DNA of 64,000 bases from positions 300,367-364,366 of the forward strand of contig CAVVMG010000001.1 of assembly GCA_963749415.1 (NCBI GenBank). Reading direction: 5' to 3'. The notes below the pieces were generated by a model. That model searched no databases and was not told where the DNA came from. It saw only the letters and a program-made list of their open reading frames with translations. How positions within the stretch are numbered: the first letter of the stretch is position 1; every line of letters starts with the position of its first letter. Source of the DNA: an uncultured Acidobacteriota bacterium. GTDB lineage: Bacteria; Actinomycetota; Acidimicrobiia; Spongiisociales; ZC4RG35. The translations under genes were made by a program, and so were the position numbers. Positions 243-62,606 of this stretch are shown piece after piece.

Positions 243-2400
243 TTATCCTCCTCCGTTGTGGTCGGACCGTGGGGCAATTGCCTCACGGTCCGGCTTGCCT
301 CCACGGACTTCTCTCTCGTGCCGGTTGCCCCGGTGCACGAAGGAGAAGCCCAGGGAATCCCAATGATCCGGGAGCCGGGGTGTGGTTTGGGGACCTCCCG
401 CGGTGAGACGGAGGCCGCCGAATCCGAGCAGCGCCGCCTGCAACAGGCCGCCCTGGGTGGCGGCGTGGATGCCGTGGCTGGAGTTGCCCATCGAGTCGTC
501 GAGATCGATGGCGGCGGCGCGCCGAAAGAAGTCATATGCCTGATCGGGACGCATCGCGAGAGACGCGGCGAGTGAGTAGACGGCCAGGCTCAGTGAGGAG
601 CCGTGGTCGGTGCGAGCGGCGTAATAGTCGAGATTCGCGCCGATCAGTTCCGAGGACCGATAGGCATCGAGCAGCACCATTCCCATCACCACGTCGGCCT
701 GTTTGGTGATCTGGCTCCGCTCCAGGCGCTTGTCCCCGAGGATCGCCTGGAGGGACCACCTCCTTGGCTCAAAGTGCGATAGCTCGACCTGGTCGAGGTC
801 GAAGTATCCGTCGTGTTCCTCGAAGACGCCGTTTTCTCCGGGCCCCGGTTCGAGGCCGTCGGCGAGAACGTTGTAGGCGTCCTCCCAGCCGGTGGCCAGA
901 CCGAGTCGGGAGACGAGGGCATCGCGGTCGTGTGTGGCGAGCTCGGCAGCGTGGCGGACCGCGGTTCGCAGATGCCAGGCGGCCATGGCGTTGGTGAAGA
1001 AATTGTCGTCGATGTCGACGTGGTACTCGTTGGGCCCGATCACATGACGCAGATGGCCCCTGCCGTCAGACCCGATCTCGATCCGACCTTGCCAGTAGCG
1101 GGCTCCGTCGACCGTCATCTCCGCCCCTTGCTCGGTCAGGAACTCTCGGTCGTCGGTCCAACTCACGTAATGGTCGACGGCATAGGCGACGTCGGCGACG
1201 ATGTGCTCCTCGATCTCACCAGTGCGGATCCGGACCCGCTCCCCGTCGGGGGTCTCTCCCCAATCCGGAGTGACCTCGTCGCCGGTGCCGGCCGATTCCC
1301 ATGCATAGAAGGCTCCGGACCGCCCGTAGTTAGCTGCCTTTCGCCTCGCTCCGTCGAGACCGTGGTAGCGGTACTCGAGATGCGCCCGCGCCAGGTCGGG
1401 CTGAGTCATGGTGAGATAGGGCACGACGAAAATGTCCGCGTCCCAGAAGACATGGTGCCGGTAGCCGTAGCCGGAGAGAAGCCTGGCGCCCACTCCCGCC
1501 CGCTCCGAGGATCGTGGCGCCCCGCCGATGAGATGGAAGGCGCCGAAACGGAGGGCAAGTTCGGCCCCGGGATCGCCCGAAACATCGACCCGACTCGTCT
1601 CCCAACGTCGGGCCCACTCCGCGGCGGAGTCGGCGACGACCTGGTCGAAGGAGACGGCAGGCATCTTTACCGACTGCACTCCCTTGTCTCGCGAGTAGAC
1701 CGCGTATTTGGTGAAGCCAAGCCTGTCCCCTTGGGCCAGATCGAGGGTCGCGTTGAGACGAGGATGGCTGGCGTGGTTGGTCAACTCGAGGGGACCGATG
1801 CCAGACACGACGCAGGTGGCGGTGACCGAGGCCAGGCCATCATCGGACTCAGCCCACATGGAGAGCTGGTCGGCGGCGGTTCGCTCCCAGTCGAGGCGTC
1901 GCCACGGCGCTCCGAACGGGCCGATGATCGAGCCGTCGAGACCGGTCTCGATCCCGATCTGCACGTCATCGGTGAGTGAGGTGATCTGCACCTCCATCGC
2001 CGCTAGTGCGGGGTCGGCCATGGAGAGGAGGCGACGGAACTCAACCCGAATGACACCGGTCCCTGGTCCGCGCCACACAACCCGCCGCGTGAGGACTCCC
2101 GTCCTGAAGTCGAGGATTCGCTCGTAACCTGCCGGTGGTTGCTGGTCGAGCCGGAAGCGCACACCGTCGACCGTGATCGAGACCCCGGTCCAATCGGGCA
2201 ATGGGGCGAGATAGGGCAGGTCCCCGAGCGGGGTTGACAAACAGACCGTGCATGAACGTGGCCGGAACCGAGTCCCCATATCCCTCCTCAAAAGTGCCTC
2301 TGGTACCGAGACGTCCATTGGCCACGCTGAATAGGGACTCTTTCCACGAGATCCGCTCCGGCCAAATCCGATCCTCGGTCAGGAGCCAGGTATCGATCAT
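243..2400 (-). pseudogene. Glycoside hydrolase family 65 phosphorylase (kojibiose/trehalose/maltose phosphorylase-like), split by a frameshift near 2222-2233
   Basis: The N-terminal ORF 2041..2400 (..FSVANGRLGTRGTFEEGYGD..ATFMHGLFVNP) and the main ORF 243..2318 (..LGDLPYLAPLPDWTGVSITVDGVRF.. HVFWDADIFVVPYL.. FYAWESAGTGDEVTP..) are consecutive parts of one GH65 protein in different frames. The join lies in a C4/G4 homopolymer. Confidence 0.8.
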
Positions 2401-3422
2401 CCCGGGCTCTCCGCGTTGTGCAGCGAGCTGTCCCGGACCACCAACTCTGGCTCGATCAGGTCCGAGCGACGGATGGGCTCGTCGTCCTCGAGGTGGTTCA
2501 CGAGGAACTCCACGATCCGCCGCCCGATTTCCTCGATCGGCTGCCGAACCGAGGTGATACCGGGCGTGCTGTAGACGGCAGGGGGCGAGTCGTCGAAGCC
2601 GGTGACCGCCACGTCCCGACCGGGGCGCAGGCCCCTGCTGTGTAGCTCGGCGATCACACCAGCAGCGAGAACATCCTGGACAGTGGCAATCGCGGTTGGA
2701 GGGGGGACGGTGTCGAGGAGATGAGATGCCGCTTTCCGTCCCGCGGCGAGACCGGTCTCGGTTCGAACGACGACGCCAGGATCGAGCTCGAGGCCGGCCA
2801 TGTTCAGTCCTTGTGCATAGCCGGCAGCTCGGTCGTCGCCCGATAGCGAGCCTTCGGGCCAGGCGATCAAAGCGATACGGCTGTGGCCCTGGTCAACGAG
2901 ATGCTTGACCGCGGCCCGGGTCCCGGCCCGGCCGTCGACATCCACCCAGGAGTGGCCGTCGGCGAGGTCGGTTCGCCCGAATGTGACGATGGGAATCCCA
3001 GCCCCGAGAAGGATGCGGACCCGCTCGTCGTCATGGACGGTGCCGGAGAGCACGAAACCGTCCACGGCCCCGCGCCTCATGATCTCACGGTAGGAATCGG
3101 TCTCGCTCTGACCGCGGTGTGGGGTGAACAAGAGGATGTCCATGCCTGCATCGGAAGCGCGCTCGGTGACCTGGTGGAGAAAGGTGTCGAGTGCGAAGCC
3201 GTCGCGTCCAGCCGGGATGCAATAGCCGATGGTGAACGTGCGCCCCTTGGGAAGGGCGCTGGCAGCTCGGTTGGGTCGATAGCCGAGCTGGTCAGCGGTC
3301 TCGATCACCCTCCGTCTCGTTTCAGGGGCGACCTTCTCCGGCGCGTTGAGCGCGTTGGAAACGGTGGAGACGGACACCCCGGAGGCCCGGCTCACGTCCT
3401 TGATCGTGGTGCGGGAGCTCAC
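2397..3422 (-). CDS. LacI-family transcriptional regulator
   Basis: N-terminal HTH TIKDVSRASGVSVSTVSNALN followed by a periplasmic-binding-protein-like sugar-binding core. It overlaps the GH65 start by 4 nt. Confidence 0.9.
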   Translation of the reverse strand: MSSRTTIKDVSRASGVSVSTVSNALNAPEKVAPETRRRVIETADQLGYRPNRAASALPKGRTFTIGYCIPAGRDGFALDTFLHQVTERASDAGMDILLFTPHRGQSETDSYREIMRRGAVDGFVLSGTVHDDERVRILLGAGIPIVTFGRTDLADGHSWVDVDGRAGTRAAVKHLVDQGHSRIALIAWPEGSLSGDDRAAGYAQGLNMAGLELDPGVVVRTETGLAAGRKAASHLLDTVPPPTAIATVQDVLAAGVIAELHSRGLRPGRDVAVTGFDDSPPAVYSTPGITSVRQPIEEIGRRIVEFLVNHLEDDEPIRRSDLIEPELVVRDSSLHNAESPG

Positions 3423-3425
3423 ATC

Positions 3426-3461
3426 AAAAACGTTTTACATGAACGTCTAAAACGTTTTTAC
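3426..3461. promoter_or_regulatory. Pair of LacI-type operator palindromes (AAAACGTTTT and TAAAACGTTTTTA) about two helical turns apart at the lacI start
   Basis: A perfect 10-bp palindrome at 3427-3436 and a near-palindrome at 3448-3460, centred on a CG as in LacI/GalR operators, lie immediately upstream of or overlapping the LacI start codon. Confidence 0.5.
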
Positions 3462-3521: not shown

Positions 3522-3891
3522 TCAGGCGGATCCGTAGGCGTAGGCGCTTTGCAGAAGCTCGCCCAGCCACTCGCTCTCGGCGTCGTCCTTGGAGCGGATC
3601 ACGATCTGATGGTTCCAGCGGGACCGGCCGACCTGTTGGATGCTGGCGCACGTGATCACTTGGAACCTCATGGTCCAGAGCCAACATGAGGTGAGGGACG
3701 CCGTCGGGGTTCTTCTTGCTCACGTTGTACAGCCAGAACCAGGCGAACTTGCGGTTGACGCCGAAGCTGATCTGTGAGGCGACGCTCACCTCGCACGATC
3801 CCAAGGCCGCGATCCGGTCGGCGATGACCCGGAAGGTCGCCAACGATTCCGGCTTGCCCGCGAAGTACTTCTCGATCGAGGCATCGGCCAT
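3522..3891 (-). pseudogene. DUF5655-like small protein, frameshifted near 3650-3670
   Basis: The first frame reads MADASIEKYFAGKPESLATFRVIADRIAALG...VPHLMLALDHE. The conserved C-terminus (FQVITCASIQQVGRSRWNHQIVIRSKDDAESEWLGELLQSAYAYGSA*) is in the +1 frame and ends at 3522. The listed ORF otherwise runs on through the LacI operator region. Confidence 0.55.
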
Positions 3892-4019
3892 GGCCGTCTA
3901 CTCCCTCGCCGCCTAGCCGCGCCGGTCGCGGGTCGTCACCGGCGAACCCGGTAGCGCAAGTGAAGCACCCGCGCGTCCACCATCACCAAGCGACCTTGAA
4001 GGGGGGCCTCGTCGCACAC

Positions 4020-4490
4020 CTATTGGTCGACCGACCACCTCTGAGTTGAGGGCATGGGCACGTCACCGTAACCGTGGCATCGGGCCTCACTCAGCTGGAA
4101 CTCGAACAGGATGTAGCGGTCGATCGGCGTGTAGGTCGAAGCCTCGGCAACATGGGACCACATGTCCGGATCGTCCACGGCGAGCCCACGGCCGGTGGCG
4201 CAGAACTCGCCTCCGGAGCCTGCATTGTCCGGGACTCCGTTGTGCAAGGCGAACCATCCACGTTCCAGGAGATCCTTCCTCTTGGGAGAAGTCGGCTCCA
4301 TGTACAGGAATAGCCCGGCGTCCGTGAAGATCGGCGTCACCGGATGAACTCGAGGGGCGCCCGACCGGCGAACTGTCGCCAGATAGGCAGGCACTGCGGT
4401 CAACCTGTCCGCCCCGAAACGTGCCAGTTCGGGCTCACGTTCCGCGAACTCCCCCCAGCTGATCGTCTGCGGCAATCCCGTGTCCGACAC
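4020..4490 (-). CDS. Pyridoxamine 5'-phosphate oxidase-family (PPOX / F420-dependent-type split-barrel) protein
   Basis: The C-terminal 150 aa of ORF 4020..4829 (..RSGAPRVHPVTPIFTDAGLFLYMEPTSPKRKDLLERGWFALHNG..) match the FMN-binding split-barrel family. A GTG start near 4490 is inferred. The upstream part of the ORF is Arg/Pro-rich non-coding read-through. Confidence 0.5.
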   Translation of the reverse strand: MSDTGLPQTISWGEFAEREPELARFGADRLTAVPAYLATVRRSGAPRVHPVTPIFTDAGLFLYMEPTSPKRKDLLERGWFALHNGVPDNAGSGGEFCATGRGLAVDDPDMWSHVAEASTYTPIDRYILFEFQLSEARCHGYGDVPMPSTQRWSVDQ

Positions 4491-15981: not shown

Positions 15982-16770
15982 GAGAGCCAACGCTTTCTGC
16001 GTTTGTAGTGCTTCACATCGCGGAACGATTTCTGCTCGCCGGTGGCGTGGAGCCCGAGGTAGAACTCCTTCACGTCCTCGTCCTTGAGGAGCCGTGCGGG
16101 ATCCCCGTCCATCACCATCTTCCCGGTCTCCATGATGTAGCCATGGTCGGCGATGGAGAGCGCCATCCGGGCGTTCTGCTCGATGAGGAGCACCGAGGTT
16201 CCCTGTTTGTTGATCTCGACGATCGTGCGCCGCACCTCCTGCACCAAACGCGGCGCCAGCCCGAGGGAGGGCTCGTCGAGGATCAGAAGCTTCGGGTCCT
16301 GCATGAGCGCCCGCCCGATGGCCAACATCTGCTGTTCTCCTCCAGACAGGTAGCCGGCCAGAGCGCTGCCCCTGTCCGCGAGCCTGGGGAACAGGCTCAT
16401 CACCCGTTCCCGGGACTCCTCGACCCGGCTGCCCGTCGCGGTTGGCGTAGGCACCGGCTCGCAGGTTGTCCTCGACTGTCATCTCGGCGAAGACCCGCCG
16501 CCCCTCCATCACCTGGCTTATCCCCCGCCGCACTCGGGCCGCCGGGTCTTCGTCGGTGATGTCGTAGTCGTCGAAGTGGATCTCGCCCTTGGTGATGTCT
16601 CCCTCGTGGACTTCGAGGAGACCGGTTATCGCCCGCAGAGTCGTCGTCTTCCCGGCGCCGTTGGCTCCGAGCAGGGCGACGATCTTGCCATCGGGCACCT
16701 CGAGCGAGATCCCGCGCAGCACCAATACCACGTCGTTGTAGACGACCTCGAGGTTCTCTACCGCCAGCAA
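15978..16770 (-). pseudogene. livF: Branched-chain amino acid ABC transporter ATP-binding protein LivF, frameshifted near 16425-16435
   Basis: The N-terminal half (MLAVENLEVVYNDVVLVLRGISLEVPDGKIVALLGANGAGKTTT..AYANRDGQ) and the C-terminal half (..RVEESRERVMSLFPRLADRGSALAGYLSGGEQQMLAIGRALM..) are in different frames. The shift is at a CC/GGG run. Confidence 0.8.
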
Positions 16771-16786: not shown

Positions 16787-18225
16787 TCACTCCATGTCCC
16801 GGTGGATGGGGGTGGCCCGAATTTGGGCCAGCCCTTTCACCGCTTCGATCAACTCAGGGCGAAGCAGGCCTCGGTGAACTCGAAGGCCTCGGCGATCGGC
16901 GACGTGTACATCGACTCGACAAGCGTGACGCCCGGTGGAAGTCCCACCAGCCAGACCAGCCGGATCGGGCCGTGAGATGAACTGAGCCCGCTGCACACGG
17001 TCGTTGGGCTCGCCGACATAGGTCTCATCGGGAGCCAACCCGTCGAAGGTGACCGACTCCAGCGCCTTGGCCGCCGCCAAGACCCCGGCCTGGGTCATGT
17101 CCCCGGCGTCGTATGCCGCCTGCAGGGCCTGATGCAGGATCGTGGCCTCGATCACCCCCTCGGCGTAGTAGTCGAGCGGATCTGCTCCGGCCGCAGTCAC
17201 CAGATCGCGCACCGCCTGGTTGCCCGGAGTGTCCGTGGCCCAGGGGGCGTAATACTGCGAGACGAAGAAGTTCTGCGCCAGAGCGTCCTTGATCGGCTGA
17301 GTCCGGCGCCACCAGTGCCGGGTTCCAGGTCGGGACTGGCACCGGACCACAGAGCGCCGGTGAAGCCGGCGGCGAGGGCCTGCCCGTAGATGGAGCCGAA
17401 CGGGGTCGGTGATGTGGTGATCCACACCAGATTGCGCTCCAGAGCCGGCGATCCCTCCTGCGACCTCGGCCAGAGTGGCGTCGTCCTGCGCATTGATCAG
17501 CCCAGTCCCGTCGTACACGACCTCGAGCCCGAGCGCCTCGGCTGCCAGCCGGGCCCCTGCATTGGAGTCCTCGCCGTAGTCACCAGGGCTGGAGGCGATG
17601 GCGATGGTCGTCGCATCGGGCATCTGCAGCTTGAGGTACTCGATCATGTTCATCGACTCGATGCAATAGGGCACCCCGTGAGGCACCAGATTGCTGTTGA
17701 TAGCCGGGTCCGACCAGCCCGAGTACCAGGTGAGCGGGATCGCCAGGATCCCATCCGCCTGCAGGCTTCCGTTGATCGCCACCGTCTGCGGTGACCCGGT
17801 GGAGTGACCGAAGGCCACCACCTGGGACTTGAGCTCCTCGTAGAGCTGGACATGGGTATCCACGTCGTAGCCGGTGTCCCGGGTCTCGACCTGCACCTGG
17901 AGGCCACCGATACCGCCGTTGGCGTTGACATCGGCCCAATACATCTCCTGGCCGGCGACGATCACCTGCACCAGAGGGGCAAACGGCCCACTGAGGTCGG
18001 ACAGGAGACCGACCGTGATGGTCCCGGCCTCGAGGTCGACCCCGACATCCGTTTGGACATCACCCGCTGCCGCGGCCGAAGTCGTCGACTCGGCCGGAGC
18101 CGCGTCGTGGTGCTCTCCCCGGCGGCGGCGGTGGTGGTGGTGTCCTCACCTCCGCCATCGCCACAGGCGGCGAGCACGAGGCCCAACGCCAGGAGGATCA
18201 CAGCCCATTTTGAGTTCTTCCTCAT
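16787..18225 (-). pseudogene. livK: Branched-chain amino acid ABC transporter substrate-binding lipoprotein (LivK/LivJ-like), three or more frameshifts
   Basis: Lipoprotein signal MRKNSKWAVILLALGLVLAACGDGG. The mature domain continues in a second frame (..GTITVGLLSDLSGPFAPLVQVIVAGQEMYWADVNANGGIGG..). A further pair of compensating shifts lies near 17290-17420 (..NLVWITTSPTPFGSIYGQALAAGFTGAL.. read in the third frame). The C-terminal end is uncertain. Confidence 0.7.
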
Positions 18226-18275: not shown

Positions 18276-19516
18276 TCAATAGGTGAACGGCCAACCCTTC
18301 CAGTAGTTGCGTATCCGAAGCCAGATCCCATAAAGGCCGAGGGGCTCGAAGATGAGGAACCCAATGATCAGGAGCCCGTAGAGAACGAGGTTGAGTTGGG
18401 CCACCGACAAGCCAGGGCCCACGCCGGCGAGGGTGTTGATCAGCCCGAAGTCGGTCGGTGGACGTGGCCATGAACACATCGGCAATCGAAGAGAGGAGCC
18501 CCTCCCCGGATACGGCCAGATCTTCGAGCCAAAGGGTGAAGTTCTGCACCATCCGGGGAAGCAGCACCACGAAGCCGGTGCCGAGCAGGGCCCCGGTAAC
18601 CGTGCCCGCGCCGCCGATGAGGACAATGGCAATGAACTCGACAGACAAGAAGAGGTCCCATCGCTCCGGAACCACCCGGGTGACGAAAGAGGCGAGCAAG
18701 GCGCCTGCGATCCCCGCGTAGAACGAAGAGATGCCAAACGCCAGCAGCTTGTACCCGAACTCGTCTACGCCCATGATCTCGGCGGCGATGTCCCGATCGC
18801 GGATCGACATGAAGGCTCGACCCACCCGGGTTCGCTGGAGGTTCTTGGCCAACACGGCGAAGATGGCGGCGACAACGGCCAGGAACAGAAATTGTTTGGC
18901 GAGGGCGGAGACCTCGACCCCGAACCAGGTGCTCGGCATCGTGAGATCGATGAGTGGCGGATCCTCCTTCCAGAATCGGAACTGGAGCGGGGGGAAATCA
19001 CGACCCACCTGGGCGCCGCCGGTGAGCGACGCCCAGTTGCGCCACACGTATTCCCCGATGAAGACCAGGCCCAGGGTGACGATCGCCAGGTAGAGCCCAC
19101 GCACTCTGACCGCGGTGGGCCCGATCGCCACCCCGATCAGGGCGGCCACGATCCCGGCGGCTGGAAGCCAGATCCAGATCGGAAGCCCGAGCCCGAGCAG
19201 CGGGCCGTCCTCCGGGCCCTCCGAGCCATACCGAGGTGTAGGCCCCAATCGCCATGAAGAAGGCGTGGCCAAGGGAGACCTGACCGGCGAGACCGGTGAG
19301 GATGTTGAGACCGAGGGCGCCGATTGCGTAGATCGCAGCCGTGCCCAGGAGCCGCAGCCAGTCGTCCTGACCGAGGAACTTCAAACCGGGGATCACTTGG
19401 AACGGGATGGTGAGCAGCGTCAGGGCGAACAGTCCGACCATGACCCGTTTGGTGGTGGTGTTGAGCAGCGCCTGGTCGGCCTCGTAGGAGGTGTAGAGGA
19501 GTGGTCTCCCTCTCAT
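18276..19516 (-). pseudogene. livM: Branched-chain amino acid ABC permease LivM, two frameshifts (about 19215 and about 18460)
   Basis: The N-terminal part (MRGRPLLYTSY...LGHAFFMAIGAYTSVWLGG), the middle (..LPIWIWLPAAG..FGYKLLAFGISSFYAGIAGALL..) and the C-terminus (..FGLINTLAGVGPGLSVAQLNLVLYGLLIIGFLIFEPLGLYGIW..) lie in three different frames. Confidence 0.7.
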
Positions 19517-19529: not shown

Positions 19530-20493
19530 TCATACCCGCCTCACCTCCGGTGTCCCGTACAGCCCGTAGGGCCGGACCAAAAGGACGATCATCATCAGCA
19601 GGTAGCCAACGATCCCCGGGAACCCGCTCCCCAGGAAGGCGAACTGCAGATAGGTGTTGGCCGCGGCTTTCGGCGATCCCCACGGCGAACCCGCCGACGA
19701 CCGCCCCCGGGATCGAATCGAGCCCACCGATGATCACCGCGGGGAAAGCGCGGAAAGCTATGAACGCAGTCGATTGGTCGACACCGGTGGCCCGCCGGGG
19801 ATAGATCGAGTAGAACAGCCCGGCCACGGCCGCGAGGAAGGCGCCGATCGCCCATGCGATGGAGAAGACGCGGCCCACGTTGATCCCCTGGGCCCGCGCC
19901 GTCTCCTGGTCGAAGGCGGTGGCCCGCATCGCGATCCCGGTGCGCGTGCGCAGGAAGAGGGCCATGAGCACGAGCAGCAAGACCGTGACCAGGATCTGGA
20001 TGATCTCCGACCACGTGATTCGCACCCAGCCGAGATTCACCTCGTTTAGCCCCCAGGGGGCGCCCAATGGGCGGGGTTGGGTCCCGATCCAGTCGTTGGT
20101 GATGGTTCGCACCACGATGTCCATGCCCAACGTGACGATGGCGACCGCGAACAGGGCCTCACCAACCATCGGCCTGAGGAAGATCCGCTCGAGGATCACG
20201 CCGAACAGAGCGGCCACGACCAGCGCGGTCAGGACGTTGGTCGTCCACTGGCCCCATTCAGGCAGGGCAGTCAGGTAGCGGCCGGGGAAGTCGAGCACGG
20301 TGACGAAGGCCGCAATCAGGAAGGCGCCCAGGCCGGTGAGAGCCCCGTGGGCGAAGTTGAGCACCGAGGTCGCCTTGAAGATGATCACAAAGCCCATCGC
20401 CAGGAGGGCGTATATGGCCCCGAAGCTGATCCCATCCACCAGCATTTGAGCGAAGGCGTTGGAGGCGACCTCTTCCTGGGCCAGGATCACCAC
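19530..20493 (-). pseudogene. livH: Branched-chain amino acid ABC permease LivH, frameshifted near 19668
   Basis: ..MLVDGISFGAIYALLAMGFVIIFKATSVLNFAHGAL.. is the LivH core. The conserved C-terminus ..YLQFAFLGSGFPGIVGYLLMMIVLLVRPYGLYG is in another frame. The shift is in an AAA/TTT run. Confidence 0.75.
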
Positions 20494-35204: not shown

Positions 35205-36037
35205 CTGACGAGACCACTGGATCCCCGGTTGCCGTCGAATGCGACGATCAGCGGGCTCACCCTGGTCGTAGCCGGCGCCGCAGGGATATTGGCGCTAACC
35301 GGGGATCGCACGCTCTGGCTGCCGGTGTTGGCAGCCGGTGCCACCTTCCTCACCTGGGCGTTGGGTCGTGAGCTCGACCCCGACCATCAGCCAACCGCGC
35401 TGATCGCCGCGCTCCCGGCCGCTGCCTCGTTCTCATCGGGTTCGAGATCAGCATCCTGGTGACCGTCGCCGTGATGATGTCGGCGCGGCTGGTGGTGGCC
35501 TCCACGGGGCGACGGCCACTCCCCACCGATCTCGCCGGCATGGTGGTGCTCGCGGGAGCTGTCTCCATCACGCCGCTGGGCTGGGTCGCCGGATTCGGCC
35601 TGGCCGTTGCGATCTACCTCGACGACCGAATGGAGGAGACGCACAGCGGGAGGGCGGTGGTGGCAGCGATCGGTGCCGCCGTTGCCGCAACCGTGGTCGC
35701 AACTCTCACCGACGCCCTGCCGCAGACGGTGCCCCAGGTGCGACCCCTGCTCACATTGGCACTTGGGGCCCTGGCCCTGATCGCCGTGAGCCGCGACCCG
35801 GTTGCCCCCTCTTCACTGGTCGACTCCCGGCGCAAGGCGCTGCTGGTCCCTGAGCGCTTGCACACCGGTCGGGCCCTGGTCGGATTGGTCCTCTTCGTTG
35901 GTGGGCTGCTCGACCCGACCCAGGCCGTGGTGCTCGCCACCATGGCTTTCACCCTGGCTCTGGCACTCGGCGCCGATTCCGCGGAGCGGATCCGACGTGG
36001 GCGCCGCCCTCGCCAAGAAGGCCCGGGACCGCGTTAG
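35178..36037 (+). pseudogene. Hypothetical polytopic membrane protein, probable frameshift near 35420
   Basis: MWVMAFRSHLTRPLD...LTWALGRELDPDHQPTALIAALPAAA is in frame 1. It continues in frame 2 as ..LVLIGFEISILVTVAVMMSARLVVAST.. with four or more TM segments. No family assigned. Confidence 0.4.
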
Positions 36038-39496: not shown

Positions 39497-41670
39497 TTGC
39501 CCAGGGAAACGATGCCGCAGCACAAAGAGCTCAGGGTTCACGGGGTGTCAGGGACACCTCCGGAGGCGATGCTGTATCTGGGTGCGGTGACCTACGACCA
39601 GTCGAAGGAGCACGCCCGGGTCTTCCGCGAGCGCACGCCCGACGACTACGACGTCGAGGCCTACCACTGGGGCAGCCTCACTTCGGGCAACTGGAAGACG
39701 GCCTACTGGGTGCTGCTAACACCCTTCCTCCTCGCCAACGTCGCCGGGTGGATGGGACGCAACTCCAGCCCGTGGTTCCGATTCGCGGTGACGACTCGCC
39801 GGGGCGGGCCTCACCGCCCTCTTCGTGGTCGAGATGTTGATCGTTGCCATCGACATCCCCTTGGAATGGGCCCACGACACCGGTCACGCAGTAGGAACAG
39901 TGCAACTCCTAGTGGTCGCAGTTTTCCTGGTCTTCCTCCTGATCATCCTGATCCTCTCCACCCAATCGCATTTCAGCCGTCTCGGCTGGGTGGAGCGATT
40001 CAGGCTGACCTTCTTCCCAACGCTTCAGGCGATGCTCCCCAAGAAGTACCGGACACCGAACGAAGCTCCAGCCGAGCAGTGGACCGACCCCGGCGAGTCG
40101 GTGCTCATCGATGGCCGGAACTGGGACGTTCACGCTTCACTGCATCGGTTACGACGAATTCATCTCGCGCTGGGGATGCTGATGATGGCGATGACGGTGT
40201 CGGTGGGAAGGGAGCAGACGACGCAGATGATGGTGGCGGGGGTCGGGATCGCGGTGATAGTCGGGCTCCTTTGGTGGACCAGCTTTCGCCCCGAGGACGA
40301 CACGCTCAAGTGGTTCACCGCCCTGGCCCCGGTCGGCGCTCTCCTGGTGCTGGGGTGGGTGACGCTGGACATGGCCTCCGGTTTTCCCCGAAGGGAGCGC
40401 CTGGCCTCACATCCACAAACTCAACTTCTACAGCGCCATGGCCCTCGGGGTTGGATCCGCCCTGATCGTCCTCGGAGAGGTCATCGCTCGCTTCCGGGGC
40501 AACGCCGACCCGCCCCCCAGCCTGGCGACGGCGGGTCTGCCGGTGGCCGCCATCACCCTGGCTGCATTGATCGGGTCGAGTCTGGGAATTGCCCTTGCTC
40601 TCGTCGCCGAAGCGTTTATCGGCGTCCATCACGTCTCGGACCAAGGCGCCGAGTGGGTGTCGATCGCAATGCTCGGCCTGGTGGTGGTGATGTTGCTTGT
40701 CACGCTGTGGCTGATGTTCACCCCGGTGAGGCCGAAGCACATCGGTTTGATCGGCAAGAAGGGTGCCGGCATCCGGAAGGTGGTCTATCGGGGACGCGTG
40801 GTGTTCTATGCCGCCGCTCTTTACGGCTTGGCGTTTGGAGTGGTCGCCTGGTGGAAGGGATGTTCCTGGACCATCGACTGCGACCCGGCCCGACTTGGTC
40901 CCTGGCCCGAGAAGTGGACCACCGACGCTCTGCTCTCGGTCACGGCCTTTGGAAAATCGTTCAGCCTCGGTGACCTCGCCGACGTAGCCCAATTGTTGGT
41001 GGTTCTGGCCCCGGCCTTCTTCGTTGTCCGCAACCTGCTCCTCAGGGCGCGAGATGCCGACCGGAGACGTCAAATCGGGATCCTGTGGGATGTCGGCTCC
41101 TTCTGGCCCCGGGCTTTTCACCCCCTCGGGCCCCCCGCCTATGGCCCGGCCGCGGTCGACCGTCTTCAGGGTGCACTGGAGCGGCCTGGCATCGCCTACC
41201 GCACGATTGTGACTCGAGAAGACCCCCGCTGGATGGATCTCCCCGACCCAACGGGTGGGCTCGACCTGCTCTCGGCCCACTCACAGGGCACCCTGGTATC
41301 CGCCGTCGCCCTCGACCGCCTCGTCGACAAGAAGTGCCTCCCCGGCGCATTCCTCACCTACGGATCACAACTCGGAATGCTCTACCCGACGATGTTCCCC
41401 CACAGCGGCATCGACGACCTCGTCGTGCGACTCCAGGAGCACCTTCCAAACCGGTGGGTCAACCTATGGCGGGACAGTGATCCAATCGGTGGCCAGCCGG
41501 CGGCTGTCCTGGGCTCGGCTAACTGGCGAGTGGTCACTGGCACCGGCCATTCTCTCTATGAGCTGACCCCCGAGTTCTGCCAGGCGCGGAAGAACCTCGA
41601 AACGCCGTCCGCGACAGGACCCAACGGTGATCTCGCCGATTGCTGGGACCAACCACCCGCCATGTCGTAG
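39497..41670 (+). pseudogene. Large polytopic membrane protein with C-terminal alpha/beta-hydrolase (lipase/esterase-like, AHSQG nucleophile elbow) domain, split by two frameshifts (about 39790 and about 40395)
   Basis: Three consecutive ORFs (39497.., 39825.., 40438..41670) join without gaps when shifted at G-runs. The C-terminal domain ..LDLLSAHSQGTLVSAVALDRLVDKK.. WRDSDPIGGQ.. GTGHSLYELTPEF is a hydrolase fold. Confidence 0.5.
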
Positions 41671-45599: not shown

Positions 45600-46263
45600 C
45601 AGGTTCCTTCTGGCGGTCAGCCAATAACAGATGGGTTGACAGGACGACGGCGAGCAGGGCTCCAATTAGTTGAGCGATGATGAAACCTGGAGCATTCGAG
45701 GGAGCGATCCCGGTGAAGCTGTCGGTGAACATTCGAGCCAGAGTCAGTGCCGGGTTGAGGAAGCCGGCTGACACGGTGGAGAACACGGCCGCTGCCACCC
45801 AGGCGCCAACCACGGGAGCTACCGCAGGCGAGCGATCCTGGTCGACTAAGCCGAGGATCAGCAGCACGAGCACGAGTGTGGCGATGCCTTCGGCGAGGAT
45901 TGGACCCCATCCTCTGCGGTCGGTGGCCGACATTGCCAGTGGCTCACCGAAGCTGACCAGACCTATCGCAACACCGGCTACTGCGCCAAGGATCTGAGCG
46001 ATCCAGTATTGAGCGGCCGTGCCTGCGGTCATTCCCCGTCGAGTCCAGAACGCCAACGTCACCGCTGGATTGAAATGAGCCCCCGACGTCGAGCCCAGGA
46101 CCGAGATCAGCGCCGCGAGAGCCAAACCCACCGCCACTGCGTGAAAGAACAATCTGCTGGCGCCGTCAGCTCCCAGTTCCTCGACGGTGATCCCGCTACC
46201 GACGACGACAAAGGCGAGGAGGCATGTTCCAGCGAATTCTGCAACGACTGGCCTGGCGTTCAT
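45574..46263 (-). CDS. Aquaglyceroporin (MIP family, AqpS/GlpF-like, putative arsenite channel)
   Basis: Two NPA boxes (HFNPAVT, FLNPALT) and six TM segments. Confidence 0.85.
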   Translation of the reverse strand: MNARPVVAEFAGTCLLAFVVVGSGITVEELGADGASRLFFHAVAVGLALAALISVLGSTSGAHFNPAVTLAFWTRRGMTAGTAAQYWIAQILGAVAGVAIGLVSFGEPLAMSATDRRGWGPILAEGIATLVLVLLILGLVDQDRSPAVAPVVGAWVAAAVFSTVSAGFLNPALTLARMFTDSFTGIAPSNAPGFIIAQLIGALLAVVLSTHLLLADRQKEPDARRPHDR

Positions 46264-46909
46264 GCGATCAGTTGGTCCACCCGCCGTTCGACTTCGGAGA
46301 ATGCCGATCGAAAGGCAGCGACTCTTCCGGAGGAGACCGGATCGGGTATCGACCAGTGCAAATGGCGGCCTGCCTCCGGGAGAGCCCCTTCTCGCGCCCG
46401 GTCGCAGACCGAGATCAGAACATCGGGTACGGCACGGATCGACTCGTAGCCCCTTGGAACCGCATCACTGAGATCGATGCCCCGCTCCGCGGCAACTCGA
46501 ATCGCATGCGGATGAACCGTTGCACTGGGGTCGCGTCCTGCGCTAGAAGCGTGCTCGCCGGTTGTGGCAAACCAGTACGCCGCTGCGTATTGAGACGCGC
46601 CGAATTGTGACTGCACACGAACAAGACTGTTCCGGAGATCCCGCCAGCCGATGGCATTAACCCGACAAGCGCGCTCTGCCGCAGGGAGACATACCGACGA
46701 CGACGGTCACCCTCGGACGCCTTGCGCTCGACGACGGCTGCCGCCTCCAGCACATTGAGGTGGTGCGCGAGCAGATTTCCGGGCATCCCCAGATCGGTCC
46801 CCAGTTCTTGCACAGTGAGGTCACCGCCAAGAAGTAGGTCGACGATCCGTAACCGACTCTCGTCACCTAAACCCGAATGGACCCTGGCACGCTCCGTCAG
46901 TCGGCTCAT
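46260..46909 (-). pseudogene. ArsR-ArsC fusion (ArsR wHTH plus LMW-PTP arsenate reductase), frameshifted near 46615
   Basis: The ArsR part (..LTVQELGTDLGMPGNLLAHHLNVLEAAAVV..) runs without a stop into the ArsC P-loop GTVLFVCSHNSAR. The rest of ArsC (..SQFGASQ..VHPHAIRVAAERGIDLS..VLISVCDRARE..WSIPDP..) is in the +1 frame. It overlaps the aquaglyceroporin gene by 4 nt. Confidence 0.6.
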
Positions 46910-48434: not shown

Positions 48435-49770
48435 TCACGGGCCCACGTCAAATATCTCCCAGGTACCGGGCACCCCTTTCAGGTCATGTCGTCCCCGCGG
48501 TGTCAGGGCGAAGCGCGATCCAATCACCATGTCGCGGACGGTCTGGGAAACAACGACCTCACCAGGGTTCGCAAGCGCCGCCACGCGGGCTCCGATGTGC
48601 ACCGCCATTCCGCTGACATCTTCGGCCTCGAAGACAACCTCGCCAATATGGAGACCGACGCGGATCTCCAGACCGGCGCTCCGGCTCGCCAGGGACATCG
48701 CCAATGCGCACTCGATGGCGGGTGTCGGGCTGTCGAAGACGATGAGGAAACCGTCCCCGGCGGTGTTCATCTCCTTGCCCCCGTATCGAGTCAGCAGCCG
48801 GCGGGCCTCGGCGCGATGACTCTTCAGCAGAGCGCTCCACACCCGATCGCCGACTCCGGCGGCGCGCTCGGTCGACCCGACCACGTCGCTGAAGAGGACG
48901 GTGGCTACCCGCCGGTCGACCGCACCGCCCACCCTCGTGCCAACGAGGAACTCCTCGATCTCGTCCATGAGACCGTCCACGTCGCCGAGGTAGCCCGGCG
49001 TCTCGTCGCCCGGCACTTCGACGTACTGGCCGTTCTGCAGATGCTCCGCCAGCCAGCGCATGCCCTCGGCCGGGATGAAGGGAAGCATCCTTCCTGTGTA
49101 TTAGGAGGGCGGGTGCCGTCACCGATGACAGCAGCGGGCGCAAGTCGATTTCCATCATTCGTCGCATCAGACTGGCCGCCATGCTGGGAGTGGCCGACAT
49201 CCGCTCCAGCTTGCGAAACCAGCTGACGATCCGCTCGTCTTCCGTCACCGAAGGGGCGATGAGTGGAAGGAGGATGGCTTGGCCCCACATCCCCTGTTCG
49301 ATCACTCCGGCCACAGTCTCGAACGCCTCGGGGTCGGGGCCCCAGGGATGGTCCTCATCGGGGGTCGAGGTGGCCAGCACCTCGCCCAACACAAGGGCGG
49401 ACACCCGCTGTGGGTGCAGGGCCGCCACGGTCATCGCGATCGCCGCGGCATCGGTCCAGCCCACGAGAGCAGCTCTATCCATGCCCACGGCGTCCATGAC
49501 CGACAAGACGTCGGGCACCATCTCGTCGGTGCTGGCCTCGATCGAGGGCCGGTCGGAGAGACCGGTGCCCCTCTTGTCGAACAGTGCGACCCGCCCCATC
49601 GCTGCGTAGCGTTCCAGAAATCGCCGGCATTCGGGCAGCTCCCACAGGACCTCGAGGTGGGAAACCCATCCGATCATCAACAGGATGTCGAGCGGCCCTC
49701 CTCCAAAGACTTGATAGGCGAGATCGACCCTCCCTGAGCGGGTGAACTTGACCTCGGGAACGGGCAACAC
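48435..49770 (-). pseudogene. LipJ-like fusion of alpha/beta-hydrolase and class III adenylate/guanylate cyclase domains, frameshifted near 49085
   Basis: The N-terminal hydrolase (..LAYQVFGGGPLDILLMIGWVSHLE..) and the C-terminal cyclase homology domain (..ATVLFSDVVGSTERAA...MNTAGDGFLIVF..) are in different frames. The architecture resembles mycobacterial LipJ. Confidence 0.6.
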
Positions 49771-56044: not shown

Positions 56045-56116
56045 CCGCGGCAAGCCCGCTGGAGGGTTTCTTTGGGATCCGCTGGCTGGGGAAGCACGGC
56101 TACGTCTGAGCGGTGA

Positions 56117-58459: not shown

Positions 58460-58562
58460 ACGGAGCTTCCTTTCGAACTAGGACCCCAACGAACGGGCGA
58501 CTGCAACAGGTCTTGGTCGCCAGCTTTCAACCCTACGCGCCTGCGATCGGGGGTCGAACAGG

Positions 58563-59485
58563 ATGGAAGAGCCACGCGTTTCGGCATCGACTCGGCTGCG
58601 TAGGATCGCATCGCCGGCGGCCGTGACCGCCAAATATGGCCCTACTCCGGAAGGAGCACATGTGATCGACGGACTCCATTTCGCCACGAGCGTTTCTGTC
58701 GGCGGCTTCGAATGGACTGGTGACTTCACCACTGTCGACCTGATCGCGGCCAGCACCAACGCCTTGAACGGTGCCCTGCTGGCCAGGCGGCCGGATCACT
58801 ACAAGCAGTTCACCATCGTCGGCATCATCTTGATGGCGATCCTCGGCGGCCTCGGTGGTGGCATCACCCGCGACCTCTTGGTCGGTGAGGTGCCGTCGGC
58901 GCTCACCAACCCGGCATACATCCTGCTCGCGGTCGCTTTCGGCTTCATCGGATACAGGATCGCCTACGCCGGAGGCCAGCTCTTCCGTGAGGGGATCTTC
59001 CAGTTCATGACCGCCTTCTCCCTGCCCTGGTACGCCATCGTCGGCGCCCAAAAGGGTGTGAACGTCGGTCTCCCGGTGCTCGGATGCCTGTTCCTGGCGG
59101 TCGTCGGCCCCACCGCCGGGCGTTACCTGATCGACGTCACCAGCGGGGTCACCCCGAAGCACTTCATCCGGGGCGAATGGTTCGTGGGCACCGCCGTGCT
59201 CACCGGCGCGGTGTGGATCCTGATCTACTGGGCGGGGGGCAGCACCTGGTTGGCGATGGGGCCGCATTCATCGTCGGGTTCACGTTCCGGGTCGTCGCCC
59301 TCTACCGGGACTGGGAGGAGCCGCTGCCGGCCGGGCCATGCCGGGGTGGTCATCCATCCCGAGCAGCGGCCTTTGCTGGGCCGCAAGCTCCACGGCAAGT
59401 CCCAACAGGAGCTGCGGGACCTGGGCTTGCTCACCGAAGAGCAAAGCCGCCGCCCTCTACGGACCGGCGGGTTCTACCGATTTGA
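58563..59485 (+). pseudogene. UPF0126 / TRIC-like (YicG/YadS family) membrane protein, frameshifted near 59235
   Basis: Glycine motif ..ILGGLGGGITRDLL.. with a repeated three-TM unit. The conserved C-terminus ..AAFIVGFTFRVVALYRDWEEPLP is in the +1 frame (ORF 59084..59485). Confidence 0.6.
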
Positions 59486-59581
59486 GCGAGCGCCGGCACC
59501 ATCGGGCGGATCGAGCGAGCCCGACGGCAGCTGTCGACGACACCGCCGGGTGGGGGAAAAATTCTGCTCACCCTGATCCTG

Positions 59582-61087: not shown

Positions 61088-61788
61088 AGGAGGGCGGTGA
61101 GCCCTTTGAACAGGAAGATCCCTCCCAGGCCGAGCCCGACGATGATCTCGATGAGACGGGTGCGAGCCAGCAACCATTCGGTCATCCCACCCAGGATCCT
61201 CTGCGAGCTTCGAGGAGCGACGGCCTGGAGCACGATGGGAAGGTGATAGGGAACGAGCATGATCAACAGAAAGACGACGAGGACGACGACCACAGCGCCG
61301 ATGCCCGGTGGGGGCTCGGCGAGGGGAATCTCCTTCAGACCTGCGGCGTAAACGACGAGGGCATCGGAGTTGATCAGCTGGACCGCCAGGCCGAGCTTGA
61401 ACAGCGATGCGAACCCCGCTGAAGCGAACCCCTCGATACGGAGTCGTTGGGCGGCTTCCTTCTCGGGAGAGGGCTTGGCGAAGACGGCGACGACGCCAAG
61501 GACCACGAACACGGCACCGAGGATGGTGTCGACTATCGCCCCCAGATCCCCGCTCCCCGAGTCGACACCTGCCGCCTCGGCGATGATGAGGATGATGATC
61601 GCGAACACGACGTCCAGGAACACCGCGCCGGAAACGAATGCGACCCCAGAAGCAATCGGACGTTTCGCTTTGGTCACGATCACGGCGCTGACCACGAGAA
61701 CGATCGGCGCCGCGAGCATCGCACCCAACGCGTAAGGCAGCATTGTTCTGAACAGACTCAAAGGCTCGCCCCTAGGCGCTGAATCCAC
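61084..61788 (-). CDS. Hypothetical polytopic membrane protein (GAP/DUF2910-like?)
   Basis: Six predicted TM segments. No confident family. It overlaps the MFS stop by 4 nt. Confidence 0.45.
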   Translation of the reverse strand: MDSAPRGEPLSLFRTMLPYALGAMLAAPIVLVVSAVIVTKAKRPIASGVAFVSGAVFLDVVFAIIILIIAEAAGVDSGSGDLGAIVDTILGAVFVVLGVVAVFAKPSPEKEAAQRLRIEGFASAGFASLFKLGLAVQLINSDALVVYAAGLKEIPLAEPPPGIGAVVVVLVVFLLIMLVPYHLPIVLQAVAPRSSQRILGGMTEWLLARTRLIEIIVGLGLGGIFLFKGLTALL

Positions 61789-61840
61789 ACCCCTCTGATG
61801 CGGTCGGCGCCGAAGCTACACAGCCGGCTTGGGCGGGTTG

Positions 61841-62606
61841 TCACCAATCGATGGTGCGGACCTCATCCCTGACCACCGTGCCCCCGATCGACGCCGTGTC
61901 GTGGTCCCAGCGGAGTTGGATGGTGGATGGGTGGCCGATCTCGTCGCCCTGGTGGATCACCAGCCGCCCTTCGTCCTGCCCGGCGTCGCCTGAGATGGGC
62001 GGCCAGGGCGACTGCGGCGCTCCCTGTAGCCGGGTCCTCGGGGACCGCCAGCTCTCCGGCGAAGAACCGGGCCTTGACCACGCGGCCCGGATCCTCCCAG
62101 GCCCACACCAGGACCTCACCGAACGACACCGGTGGCGGCACCATGTCGGCAACCGCCCGGGCCGAGGAGAGTCGAACCAGGAGGTACGGGATCGGCATCG
62201 ACACCGAAACTGCGAGATCGCCGTCGAGTGGAGGCGGGTCTACCTGCTCGACCGGCTGTCCGCCTGACGCCTTGATCCAGATGGCGACGCCCTCGGTGCT
62301 CACTTCCACATCCCCGACCTGACAGCGGATAGTGCTGACCGGGCCATCGAGCAGATCCTGGAGAGCCCATGCCAGCCCGACGAGCGGATGACCGGCAAAT
62401 GGCATCTCGATCGCCGGCGTGAAGATCCTCGCCGTAGGGACATCCCCCTCGAGATCACAGAAGATGGTCTCGGAAAAGCCGAGGTCGGCGGCGATCGCCT
62501 GCATGTCCTCGGTGCTCAGCCCCGCGACATCCGTGACCACTCCAAGATGGTTGCCACCGTCCTGGTCGCGGGTGAACACGCGCAGGATCTGACATTCCCG
62601 GCTCAT
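61841..62606 (-). pseudogene. PhzF-family (phenazine biosynthesis-like, DAP-epimerase fold) protein, frameshifted near 61990-62010
   Basis: ..ILRVFTRDQDGGNHLGVV.. SETIFC.. ARIFTPAIEMPFAGHPLVG is in frame 1. The conserved C-terminus ..GDAGQDEGRLVIHQGDEIGHPSTIQLRWDHDTASIGGTVVRDEV is in the +1 frame and ends at 61841. Confidence 0.65.

What the first reader, a model, noticed from the sequence alone, without database searches (positions are those of the whole stretch)
243..62606. At least 17 single-base frameshifts in conserved genes, located in homopolymers: assembly indel errors are more likely than mass pseudogenisation
Genes whose two halves are both well conserved but lie in different frames: GH65 (about 2222-2233), DUF5655 (about 3660), livF (about 16430), livK (three or more), livM (about 19215 and about 18460), livH (about 19668), ClC (about 33715), membrane protein (about 35420), large hydrolase-membrane protein (about 39790 and about 40395), arsRC (about 46615), LipJ-like (about 49085), UPF0126 (about 59235) and PhzF (about 62000). 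Where I could localise them (GH65, livF, livH) the shift sits in a 3-4 nt C, G or A/T run. That gives about one shift per 3.7 kb, while long genes such as UPF0182, fadD and both sulfatases are intact. This pattern is typical of uncorrected homopolymer indels (454, IonTorrent or unpolished long reads). It would make any automated annotation of this contig report many false pseudogenes.
Basis: seen in the sequence. Interest (0 to 1): 0.5.

Follow-up and report, generated by a model that had tools for sequence, protein, structure and literature searches.

The report
Assembly-error frameshifts, not real pseudogenes
The many broken genes in this stretch of an uncultured Acidimicrobiia genome are single-base errors of the metagenome assembly, mostly an extra base written in where co-occurring strains differ, and not gene decay or classic homopolymer miscounts.

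Summary
I located 22 frame-breaking single-base indels in coding sequence.

The window belongs to a 2.64-Mb contig of an uncultured Acidimicrobiia MAG.

- **Repair test:** reverting one base per site fuses every split gene into one ORF. Where a relative has an intact copy, the ORF matches it end to end at 94-100% amino-acid identity.
- **Selection:** the broken liv genes have dN/dS 0.04-0.09, like their intact neighbours. Window-private codon changes in them are 47 synonymous to 6 non-synonymous. No stop codons remain after repair.
- **Relatives:** closely related contigs (95-98% nt) carry their own frameshifts in other genes. An Illumina MAG has the liv operon intact.

- **Direction:** 17 of the 22 are +1 insertions.
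- **Context:** of 74 assembly-private insertions across five contigs, 56 do not extend any run.
- **Signature:** 26 of the 74 place both alleles of a strain-level SNP side by side, against 2.5 expected (P about 1e-19).

The likeliest cause is consensus calling over mixed strains in a long-read assembly. This is ordinary and of low biological interest, but useful for annotation.

The parts
2207..2238 (-). GH65 glycoside hydrolase: one extra base (+1) in the stretch AACCCCGCTCGGGGAC
   Evidence: Pfam GH65_N positions 2-47 fall in ORF 2044-2892 and positions 66-229 in ORF 246-2378. Removing one base gives a single 2-229/233 match at 147 bits. No close relative carries this gene, so the exact base is unresolved.
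3642..3642 (-). DUF5655 protein: +1 insertion (GGATGCTGG against GGAT-CTGG)
   Evidence: Private to the window when compared with contig_20392 and L115. The intact 122-aa orthologue matches two frames in the window and one frame after repair.
16429..16429 (-). livF (ABC ATPase): +1 insertion. The window has GCTG where relatives have G-TG or G-CT
   Evidence: Both alleles (T and C) are retained. After repair there is a single 263-aa match.
16934..16934 (-). livK: +1 insertion. CCCGG merges CCC (contig_20392) with CCG (L001, contig_32013)
17297..17297 (-). livK: +1 insertion, shared with contig_20392
   Evidence: It is absent from L001 and contig_32013.
17331..17331 (-). livK: +1 insertion. TCGGG merges C (L001, contig_32013) with G (contig_20392)
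17431..17431 (-). livK: +1 insertion. CAGATT merges G with A. On the coding strand this reads TCTG, merging the CTG and TTG Leu codons
18103..18103 (-). livK: -1 deletion at a position where strains differ by a 3-nt indel. The window keeps 2 of the 3 bases
   Evidence: After all five livK repairs there is a single 456-aa match.
18460..18460 (-). livM: +1 insertion, shared with contig_20392
   Evidence: The 60 codons downstream are still 100% conserved in the original frame in both contigs.
19212..19212 (-). livM: +1 insertion, private to the window
   Evidence: After repair there is a single 412-aa match.
19665..19665 (-). livH: +1 insertion, shared with contig_20392. On the coding strand AGCC merges the AGC and GCC codons seen in two relatives
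   Evidence: After repair there is a single 320-aa match at 99.7% identity.
29994..29994 (-). 295-aa protein: +1 insertion.
   Evidence: The orthologue is 100% identical on both sides of the break, in two frames, and gives a single match after repair.
33722..33722 (-). ClC channel with CBS and TrkA_C domains: +1 insertion (GCTCGAGG merges T with C)
   Evidence: Pfam domains are split between two ORFs. The intact orthologue is 673 aa.
35425..35425 (+). 306-aa membrane protein: -1 deletion (CTGC-CTCG against CTGCGCTCG)
39790..39790 (+). 718-aa membrane protein of unknown family: +1 insertion
   Evidence: The contig_32013 ORF runs straight through this site. The repaired protein covers 96-99% of more than 100 single-ORF homologues of 650-770 aa.
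40385..40396 (+). The same protein: +1 insertion in GGTTTTCCCCGAA. TTTT+CCCC merges the TTT and TTC codons. contig_32013 has its own +1 insertion 7 nt further on
45607..45607 (-). MIP channel, last codons: -1 deletion in a T run (TTT to TT).
   Evidence: The product is 229 aa against 221 aa in relatives. After repair there is a full 221-aa match.
46595..46595 (-). ArsR-ArsC (LMWP) fusion: -1 deletion (GAGA-CGCG against GAGAGCGCG)
   Evidence: After repair there is one 216-aa ORF with HTH_5 and LMWPc profile positions 1-143/144.
49083..49083 (-). LipJ-like hydrolase plus adenylate cyclase: +1 insertion (GGGAAGC against GGG-AGC)
   Evidence: (444-aa orthologues).
59260..59260 (+). UPF0126 (Gly_transporter) protein: -1 deletion, possibly a G5 to G4 contraction
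59339..59339 (+). UPF0126 protein: compensating +1 insertion 79 nt downstream, shared with contig_20392.
   Evidence: contig_49352 reads through in one frame.
61988..61988 (-). PhzF-like protein: +1 insertion. GTCGCC merges C (contig_20392) with G (contig_49352)
   Evidence: After repair there is a single 254-aa match at 99.6% identity.

Best explanation
The window is part of a 2.64-Mb contig of an uncultured Acidimicrobiia metagenome-assembled genome, built in a long-read style. Its consensus carries about one spurious single-base indel per 3 kb. The organism's genes are intact and the frameshifts exist only in the assembled sequence.

Most of the errors are not homopolymer miscounts. They are +1 insertions at positions where co-occurring strains differ by a SNP, usually a synonymous one. 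The consensus step wrote both alleles one after the other: CTG/TTG became TCTG, CAC/AGC became CAGC, and CCC/CCG became CCCG. At one site it kept two bases of a strain-specific 3-nt indel.

The errors cluster where haplotypes were collapsed: 9 of the 22 lie in 3.3 kb of the liv operon.

Shown here: the indels, their privacy to each assembly, intact selection on the affected genes, and the two-allele signature. Inferred: that the cause is consensus or polishing over mixed strains, and that the platform was Nanopore with a Flye/Medaka-type pipeline.
For: **Origin of the window**
- Nine of ten window ORFs are exact members of the public protein collection, on one 2,641,084-bp NCBI/ENA contig.
- All relatives found are Acidimicrobiia MAGs.

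**Repair restores every gene**
- Eleven genes give single full-length tblastn matches at 94-100% identity to intact orthologues after one-base repairs. Before repair each matches in 2-4 frames.
- The repaired arsRC and GH65 give complete Pfam matches.
- The repaired 718-aa protein covers 96-99% of more than 100 single-ORF homologues.

**Selection is intact**
- dN/dS is 0.055, 0.088, 0.072 and 0.041 for broken livF, livK, livM and livH. Intact neighbours give 0.04-0.12. No stops remain after repair.
- Window-private codon changes in the four broken liv genes are 47 synonymous to 6 non-synonymous in the original frame.
- The C-terminal peptides downstream of the shared sites 18460 and 19665 are conserved despite nucleotide differences.

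**Each assembly has its own errors**
- contig_32013 splits UPF0182 into 540 and 422 aa.
- contig_20392 splits the NYN protein, ClC, fadD and a sulfatase.
- contig_49352 splits the MFS transporter, a sulfatase, EamA and arsRC.
- All of these genes except ClC and arsRC are intact in the window; in those two each assembly breaks at its own positions.
- The Illumina MAG L001 has the liv operon intact.

**The error signature**
- The 22 events are 17 insertions and 5 deletions (binomial P = 0.017).
- Of 74 assembly-private 1-nt insertions, 56 are flanked by different bases and only 8 lie in runs of 3 or more.
- 26 of the 74 have both bases present as alternative alleles in the comparators, against 2.5 expected (P about 9e-20). 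For the window alone the figure is 10 of 16.

**Clustering**
- Nine of the 22 lie within 3.3 kb (P = 1.5e-4).

**Literature**
- Frameshift errors are a recognised residue of Nanopore soil-metagenome assemblies (PMC13087279).
- The Flye plus one-round-Medaka pipeline used for a large catalogue of such MAGs is described in PMC12313526.
Against: - No reads were available, so the platform, the coverage and the presence of two haplotypes in the sample are all inferred.
- Four sites (17297, 18460, 19665, 59339) are shared with contig_20392, a separately assembled contig that is 96-98% identical. Under my explanation the same artefact must recur at the same polymorphic site, or the two assemblies must draw on overlapping read populations. 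I could not test this.
- About 3-5 sites could equally be ordinary homopolymer-length errors: 45607 and 59260, and possibly 2225, 40390 and 49083.
- In the limited literature searches I ran, I found no paper that describes the two-allele insertion signature explicitly.
Confidence: 0.85

Rival explanations
1. These are classic homopolymer-length errors of 454, IonTorrent or unpolished long reads. The basecaller or consensus miscounts runs of identical bases.
For: A few sites fit this reading: 45607 (TTT to TT), 59260 (probably G5 to G4), 49083 (A to AA), 40390 (a T4C4 context) and GH65 (a C4/G4 context). The intergenic sites 5419 and 51291 also extend short runs.
Against: - Of 74 private insertions in five contigs, 56 are flanked by different bases and only 8 lie in runs of 3 or more.
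- The window contains 105 runs of 5 or more G or C, yet almost none of them is hit.
- Insertions outnumber deletions 17 to 5.
- The inserted base matches the alternative strain allele about ten times more often than chance predicts.
Confidence: 0.1
2. This is genuine gene decay. The lineage is undergoing reductive evolution, and the frameshifts are real pseudogenising mutations.
For: The density of broken genes is high. Four sites are shared with a related contig, which could reflect inheritance.
Against: - dN/dS in the broken genes equals that in intact genes.
- Window-private changes are 47 synonymous to 6 non-synonymous.
- There are no nonsense mutations, larger deletions or insertion sequences in the broken genes.
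- Five independent hits in livK have left no other damage.
- The bias is towards insertion rather than deletion.
- Relatives at 95-98% identity break different genes.
- Downstream frames remain perfectly conserved.
Confidence: 0.02
3. A subset of the sites is real and is decoded by recoding, either programmed ribosomal frameshifting or transcriptional slippage. This would apply to the four sites shared by two contigs, and it would explain why the downstream frames stay under selection.
For: The shared sites 17297, 18460, 19665 and 59339 have conserved downstream frames.
Against: - No slippery heptamer or stop-codon-context motif is present at these sites (read directly from the sequence).
- Orthologues in L001, contig_32013 and contig_49352 have no shift at these positions.
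- The sites look like the 18 private artefacts in the same contig. For example, 19665 merges the AGC and GCC alleles seen in two relatives.
Confidence: 0.03

Closest known systems
Gene-fragmenting indel errors in long-read (Nanopore or PacBio) assemblies and MAGs. They are measured by the IDEEL test and corrected by tools such as proovframe (bioRxiv 10.1101/2021.08.23.457338), Homopolish (PMC8011154) and Kastor (PMC12007338). Residual frameshifts in ONT soil assemblies are noted in PMC13087279.
   Same: Single-base indels split conserved genes. They are private to an assembly, they are removed by comparison with homologues, and they lead to truncated protein predictions in public databases.
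   Different: The usual description puts the errors in homopolymers (PMC9262707). Here most are non-homopolymer +1 insertions at strain-variable positions, and they cluster locally.
Collapsed-haplotype or strain-mixture consensus problems in metagenome assembly. This is the motivation for strain-resolving tools such as Strainberry (PMC8302730) and Strainy or Floria (cited in PMC13087279).
   Same: Several closely related strains are merged into one consensus sequence. The affected positions are the strain SNPs.
   Different: Those papers focus on lost strain resolution and on mismatches. I did not find a description of the specific outcome seen here, where both alleles are written in tandem to give a frameshift.
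Mass pseudogenisation in reductive genomes, of the Mycobacterium leprae or M. ulcerans type (from general knowledge).
   Same: Many conserved genes are interrupted in a high-GC actinobacterial-type genome.
   Different: Real decay shows relaxed selection, mixed lesion types, a deletion bias and lesions shared by descent. None of these is seen here.

Membership tests
Assembly or consensus indel artefact | The indels are private to one assembly and absent from close relatives and from short-read assemblies | tested here: met
   Eighteen of the 22 are private to the window. The relatives carry different private indels. The Illumina MAG L001 has the liv genes intact. Four sites are shared with contig_20392.
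Assembly or consensus indel artefact | Affected genes show undiminished purifying selection on both sides of the break | tested here: met
   dN/dS is 0.04-0.09 in the broken liv genes against 0.04-0.12 in intact neighbours. Private changes are 47 synonymous to 6 non-synonymous. Downstream peptides are conserved.
Assembly or consensus indel artefact | Reversing a single base restores a full-length orthologous ORF, with no other lesions | tested here: met
Assembly or consensus indel artefact | Raw reads do not support the consensus base at the sites | not testable with these tools
   No reads are available.
Homopolymer-length sequencing error (454, IonTorrent, ONT R9) | The indel lengthens or shortens a run of identical bases, typically 3 nt or more | tested here: not met
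   Only 8 of 74 private insertions lie in runs of 3 or more, and 56 of 74 are flanked by different bases. About 3-5 of the 22 window sites are compatible.
Mixed-strain consensus artefact (two alleles written in tandem) | The inserted base and its neighbour are the two alleles of a SNP seen among related strains | tested here: met
   The signature appears at 26 of 74 insertions against 2.5 expected (P about 9e-20), and at 10 of 16 for the window alone.
Mixed-strain consensus artefact (two alleles written in tandem) | Two haplotypes are present in the reads of the sample at those positions | not testable with these tools
   No reads are available. Related strains do co-occur in the ENA assemblies ERZ25039494 and ERZ25039576.
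Pseudogenes of reductive evolution | Relaxed selection, mixed lesion types, deletion bias, and lesions shared by descent | tested here: not met
   The ratio is 17 insertions to 5 deletions. Relatives break different genes.
Programmed frameshifting or transcriptional slippage | A conserved slippery motif, and the same shift in orthologues | tested here: not met
   Orthologues are unshifted at every site. No slippery motif appears in the contexts listed.

The most novel reading that the evidence does not exclude
The four +1 sites shared by the window and the separately assembled contig_20392 are livK 17297, livM 18460, livH 19665 and UPF0126 59339. They might be real, inherited frameshifts in this lineage that are read through by some form of recoding. 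That would explain why the downstream frames remain under purifying selection.
Probability: 0.03. Interest if true: 0.5.

Novelty: not a real feature. Interest (0 to 1): 0.15.

Why it matters
There is no biological discovery here. The value is practical.

- **Public annotation is already affected.** The public gene calls for this 2.64-Mb MAG contain truncated or chimeric proteins. Examples are a 392-aa LivK with an out-of-frame middle, a 410-aa fragment of a 718-aa protein, a 217-aa fragment of a 444-aa LipJ-like enzyme, and a 247-aa PhzF.
- **Metabolic inference would be wrong.** Any reconstruction would wrongly infer loss of branched-chain amino-acid uptake, a chloride channel, arsenic resistance and other functions. 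Pseudogene counts would suggest genome decay that is not there.
- **The fix must match the cause.** Most errors sit at strain-variable positions, not in homopolymers. Homopolymer-aware polishing will therefore not remove them. Strain-aware polishing, short-read polishing or homology-guided frameshift correction is needed.
- **A possible screen.** An extra base next to a SNP could serve as a cheap, reference-free warning sign for collapsed-strain regions in long-read MAGs.

Tried and rejected
- **GC-frame plot and GC3 filtering of ORFs.** These were too noisy in this 65% GC sequence to place the shifts.
- **Initial guess of Mycobacterium.** I guessed this from the gene names, and the genome scan rejected it: all relatives are Acidimicrobiia MAGs.
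- **The look-up of encoding contigs on the window's own proteins.** It never returns the window's own contig, although listing of cluster members shows the proteins are in the collection. I could therefore not obtain the record name or sample of the window.
- **Metagenome scan with repaired LivK.** It found only relatives at 87% identity or less.
- **Repaired LivK protein search.** No intact copy above 94% identity was found. Same-lineage DNA came from cluster members instead.
- **GH65.** No close relative carries the GH65-LacI block; contig_20392 and L115 have other genes there. This site rests on Pfam coordinates only.
- **Contig or ENA accession numbers in the supplements of PMC12313526.** No supplements are held.
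- **Longest-ORF comparison before and after repair.** It was misleading because of long spurious ORFs, so I replaced it with tblastn against intact orthologues.

Full report
**What the window is**

The sequence is 65% GC. I first guessed Mycobacterium from the gene names. A scan of one genome per species with the intact UPF0182 protein returned only uncultured Acidimicrobiia MAGs. The best was L001, an Illumina/megahit MAG at 92% amino-acid identity.

Exact look-ups show that nine of ten window ORFs are in the public protein collection, all on one 2,641,084-bp contig held by NCBI and ENA. A contig of that length from an uncultured soil or sediment lineage implies a long-read assembly. The related contigs I retrieved have Flye-style names (contig_20392, contig_32013, contig_49352) and come from the ENA metagenome assemblies ERZ25039494 and ERZ25039576. 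The platform is an inference, because I had no reads.

**Checking the observation**

Pfam placed adjacent parts of one family in different frames in several genes:
- GH65: GH65_N positions 2-47 in one frame and 66-229 in another.
- DUF5655: profile positions 1-55 against 75-107.
- ArsR HTH in one frame and LMWPc positions 34-143 in another.
- An alpha/beta hydrolase in one frame and an adenylate cyclase in another.
- ClC in one frame and CBS plus TrkA_C in another.

For nucleotide-level placement I assembled comparators from fetched loci:
- L001 (87-89% nt identity).
- contig_32013, called C3 (90-92%).
- contig_20392, called C2 (95-98%, covering window 3517-39754 and 49913-64000).
- contig_49352, called C4 (95-98%, covering 42717-64000).
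- L115 (98%).

They also revealed three further sites: 29994, 45607 and 59339. The total is 22 frame-breaking indels, 17 of them +1 and 5 of them -1.

**Do the genes fuse when the indels are reverted?**

In the window each orthologue matches in two to four frames.

| Gene | Match length | Identity |
|---|---|---|
| DUF5655 | 122/122 | 98.4% |
| LivF | 263/263 | 96.6% |
| LivK | 456/456 | 93.7% |
| LivM | 412/412 | 93.9% |
| LivH | 320/320 | 99.7% |
| 295-aa protein | 295/295 | 100% |
| ClC | 673/673 | 97.2% |
| 306-aa protein | residues 6-306 | 97.0% |
| MIP | 221/221 | 93.7% |
| LipJ-like | 444/444 | 97.7% |
| PhzF | 254/254 | 99.6% |

Other repaired genes behave the same way:
- Repaired arsRC is one 216-aa ORF with HTH_5 and a complete LMWPc match at profile positions 1-143/144.
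- Repaired GH65_N matches profile positions 2-229/233 in one stretch.
- The repaired 718-aa membrane protein aligns over 96-99% of its length with more than 100 single-ORF homologues of 650-770 aa, mostly from short-read data. The best is 82% identical and 698 aa long.

**Real decay or artefact?**

Three independent lines point to artefact.

1. Selection. Between the window and L001, the frameshifted livF, livK, livM and livH have dN/dS of 0.055, 0.088, 0.072 and 0.041. Intact neighbours give 0.04-0.12. There are no in-frame stops once the indels are removed. On the terminal branch, codon changes private to the window in these four genes are 47 synonymous to 6 non-synonymous in the original frame. 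Five independent frameshifts in livK with no relaxation of constraint is not what a pseudogene looks like.

2. Privacy. Each related contig has its own set of breaks in other genes.
   - C3 splits UPF0182 into 540 and 422 aa.
   - C2 splits the NYN protein (251 and 100 aa), ClC, fadD and a sulfatase.
   - C4 splits the MFS transporter, a sulfatase and EamA, and has four private +1 insertions in arsRC.
   - The Illumina MAG L001 has the whole liv operon intact.

3. Lesion spectrum. All lesions are single-base indels. None of the broken genes has a nonsense mutation, a larger deletion or an insertion sequence. Insertions outnumber deletions 17 to 5 (P = 0.017).

**What kind of artefact?**

The homopolymer explanation does not fit. 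Across all blocks with three or more sequences there are 74 one-base insertions private to a single contig.
- In 56 of them the inserted base differs from both neighbours.
- In 10 it makes a run of two.
- Only 8 lie in runs of three or more.

The inserted base and its neighbour are very often the two alleles found at that position in the other strains. Examples:
- livK 17431, coding strand TCTG, where L001 has CTG and C3 has TTG.
- livF 16429, CAGC, against CAC and AGC.
- livH 19665, AGCC, against GCC and AGC.
- livK 16934, CCCG, against CCC in C2 and CCG in C3 and L001.
- The 295-aa protein at 29994, GA, against G and A.
- ClC 33722, TC, against T and C.
- PhzF 61988, CG, against C in C2 and G in C4.
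- The 718-aa protein at about 40390, TTTT+CCCC, against TTT and TTC.

The strict form of this signature requires both alleles to be present among only two to four comparators. It occurs in 26 of the 74 insertions, against 2.5 expected from random placement (P about 9e-20). For the window it occurs in 10 of 16.

The -1 event at 18103 sits on a strain-specific 3-nt indel, and the window keeps two of the three bases.

The sites are also clustered. Nine of the 22 fall within 3.3 kb of the liv operon (P = 1.5e-4), while 20.5-29.9 kb and 49.1-59.2 kb have none.

All of this fits a consensus or polishing step run on a pile-up of two closely related haplotypes. In such a pile-up, a SNP can be represented as an insertion in some reads and a match in others, and both get called. 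A few sites remain compatible with ordinary run-length errors: 45607 (TTT to TT), 59260 (probably G5 to G4), 49083, and possibly 2225.

**The awkward observation**

Four +1 sites (17297, 18460, 19665, 59339) are shared between the window and C2, which is a distinct sequence 96-98% identical to it.

Downstream of 18460 and 19665, the original-frame peptides are conserved in both contigs. For LivM this is 60 of 60 residues identical to L001. The nucleotide differences between the contigs in these stretches are all silent in that frame. The shared shifts are therefore not inherited inactivations.

There are two possible readings:
- The same artefact recurs at the same polymorphic position. This is plausible if the same pair of strains co-occurs in both samples or read sets.
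- The shift is real and is read through by recoding.

The second reading is unlikely, about 3%. There is no slippery motif, the orthologues are unshifted, and the sites look exactly like the 18 private ones. Site 19665, for example, merges the AGC and GCC alleles seen in two relatives.

**Comparison with what is known**

Frameshift-type truncation of predicted proteins is the standard residual error of long-read assemblies. It motivates the IDEEL test and correction tools (bioRxiv 10.1101/2021.08.23.457338; PMC8011154; PMC12007338). It is still reported for Nanopore R10.4 soil metagenomes (PMC13087279).

The large Danish long-read MAG catalogue, which contributed many of the Acidimicrobiia MAGs seen, used Flye plus a single round of Medaka. 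Its authors discuss microdiversity and homopolymer-linked loss of coding density (PMC12313526). Sereika et al. 2022 attribute residual Nanopore indels mainly to homopolymers (PMC9262707).

I did not find, in three searches, a description of the two-alleles-in-tandem signature. It may nevertheless be familiar to assembler developers.

**Verdict**

This is not a biological feature, so its interest is low. It is a useful warning for anyone annotating this MAG or others like it, and a hint that strain-aware polishing, not homopolymer polishing, is what is needed.

Noticed in passing
window 42619-42694 and 55380-55428: A tRNA-Arg(CCT) gene sits exactly where synteny with contig_20392 and contig_32013 ends. 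A 49-nt direct repeat of its 3' half (47/49 identical) lies 12.7 kb downstream. The interval has lower GC (62.4% against 64.7%). It carries arsR-arsC, a MIP channel, a second LMWP ArsC, a methyltransferase, EamA, a LipJ-like enzyme, NhaP, a sulfatase and an ion channel. This looks like a genomic island integrated at the tRNA, but I saw no integrase. contig_20392 lacks most of 42.7-49.9 kb.
   Followed up: partly
window 243-3434: The GH65 hydrolase and its LacI-type regulator are not syntenic with the closest relatives. Beyond DUF5655, contig_20392 and L115 carry an aldo-keto reductase and a 784-aa ABC-type ATPase instead. This appears to be strain-level gene-content variation.
   Followed up: no
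window 8010-8660: A VapB-VapC (PIN) toxin-antitoxin pair next to UPF0182 is present in the window, contig_20392, L115 and contig_32013. It is absent from the Illumina MAG L001, which shows gaps of about 600 nt in the alignment.
   Followed up: no
L001 about 5392-5558 (between livG and livF; window position 15975): L001 has a 167-nt insertion in the short livG-livF junction. The window and contig_32013 lack it. Its nature is unknown; it may be a small repeat element.
   Followed up: no
contig_32013 (L108), at window position 15146: A 50-nt, nearly perfect palindrome (CGCGCGCCGTTATGGACC...GTCAATAACGGCGCGCG) lies between bioY and livG in contig_32013 only. It looks like a terminator or a small inserted hairpin element.
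   Followed up: no
It belongs to a family of more than 200 hypothetical proteins of 650-770 aa, whose named members are Acidimicrobiia or Actinobacteria MAGs. This is an uncharacterised multi-pass membrane protein family.
   Followed up: partly
L109, L110, L111, L112, L116 (ENA ERZ25039494 and ERZ25039576): The related public contigs are more error-ridden than the window. Examples are at least 9 indels in ClC of contig_20392, four private +1 insertions in arsRC of contig_49352, and BPD_transp_2 permease genes shattered into 76-207-aa pieces. The problem is a property of the data set, not of this contig alone.
   Followed up: partly
window 3892-4027, 16787-16850, 58480-58640: Intergenic stretches also carry several window-private single-base indels. 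The error process is therefore not confined to coding sequence. Promoter and RBS regions in this contig may be affected too.
   Followed up: no
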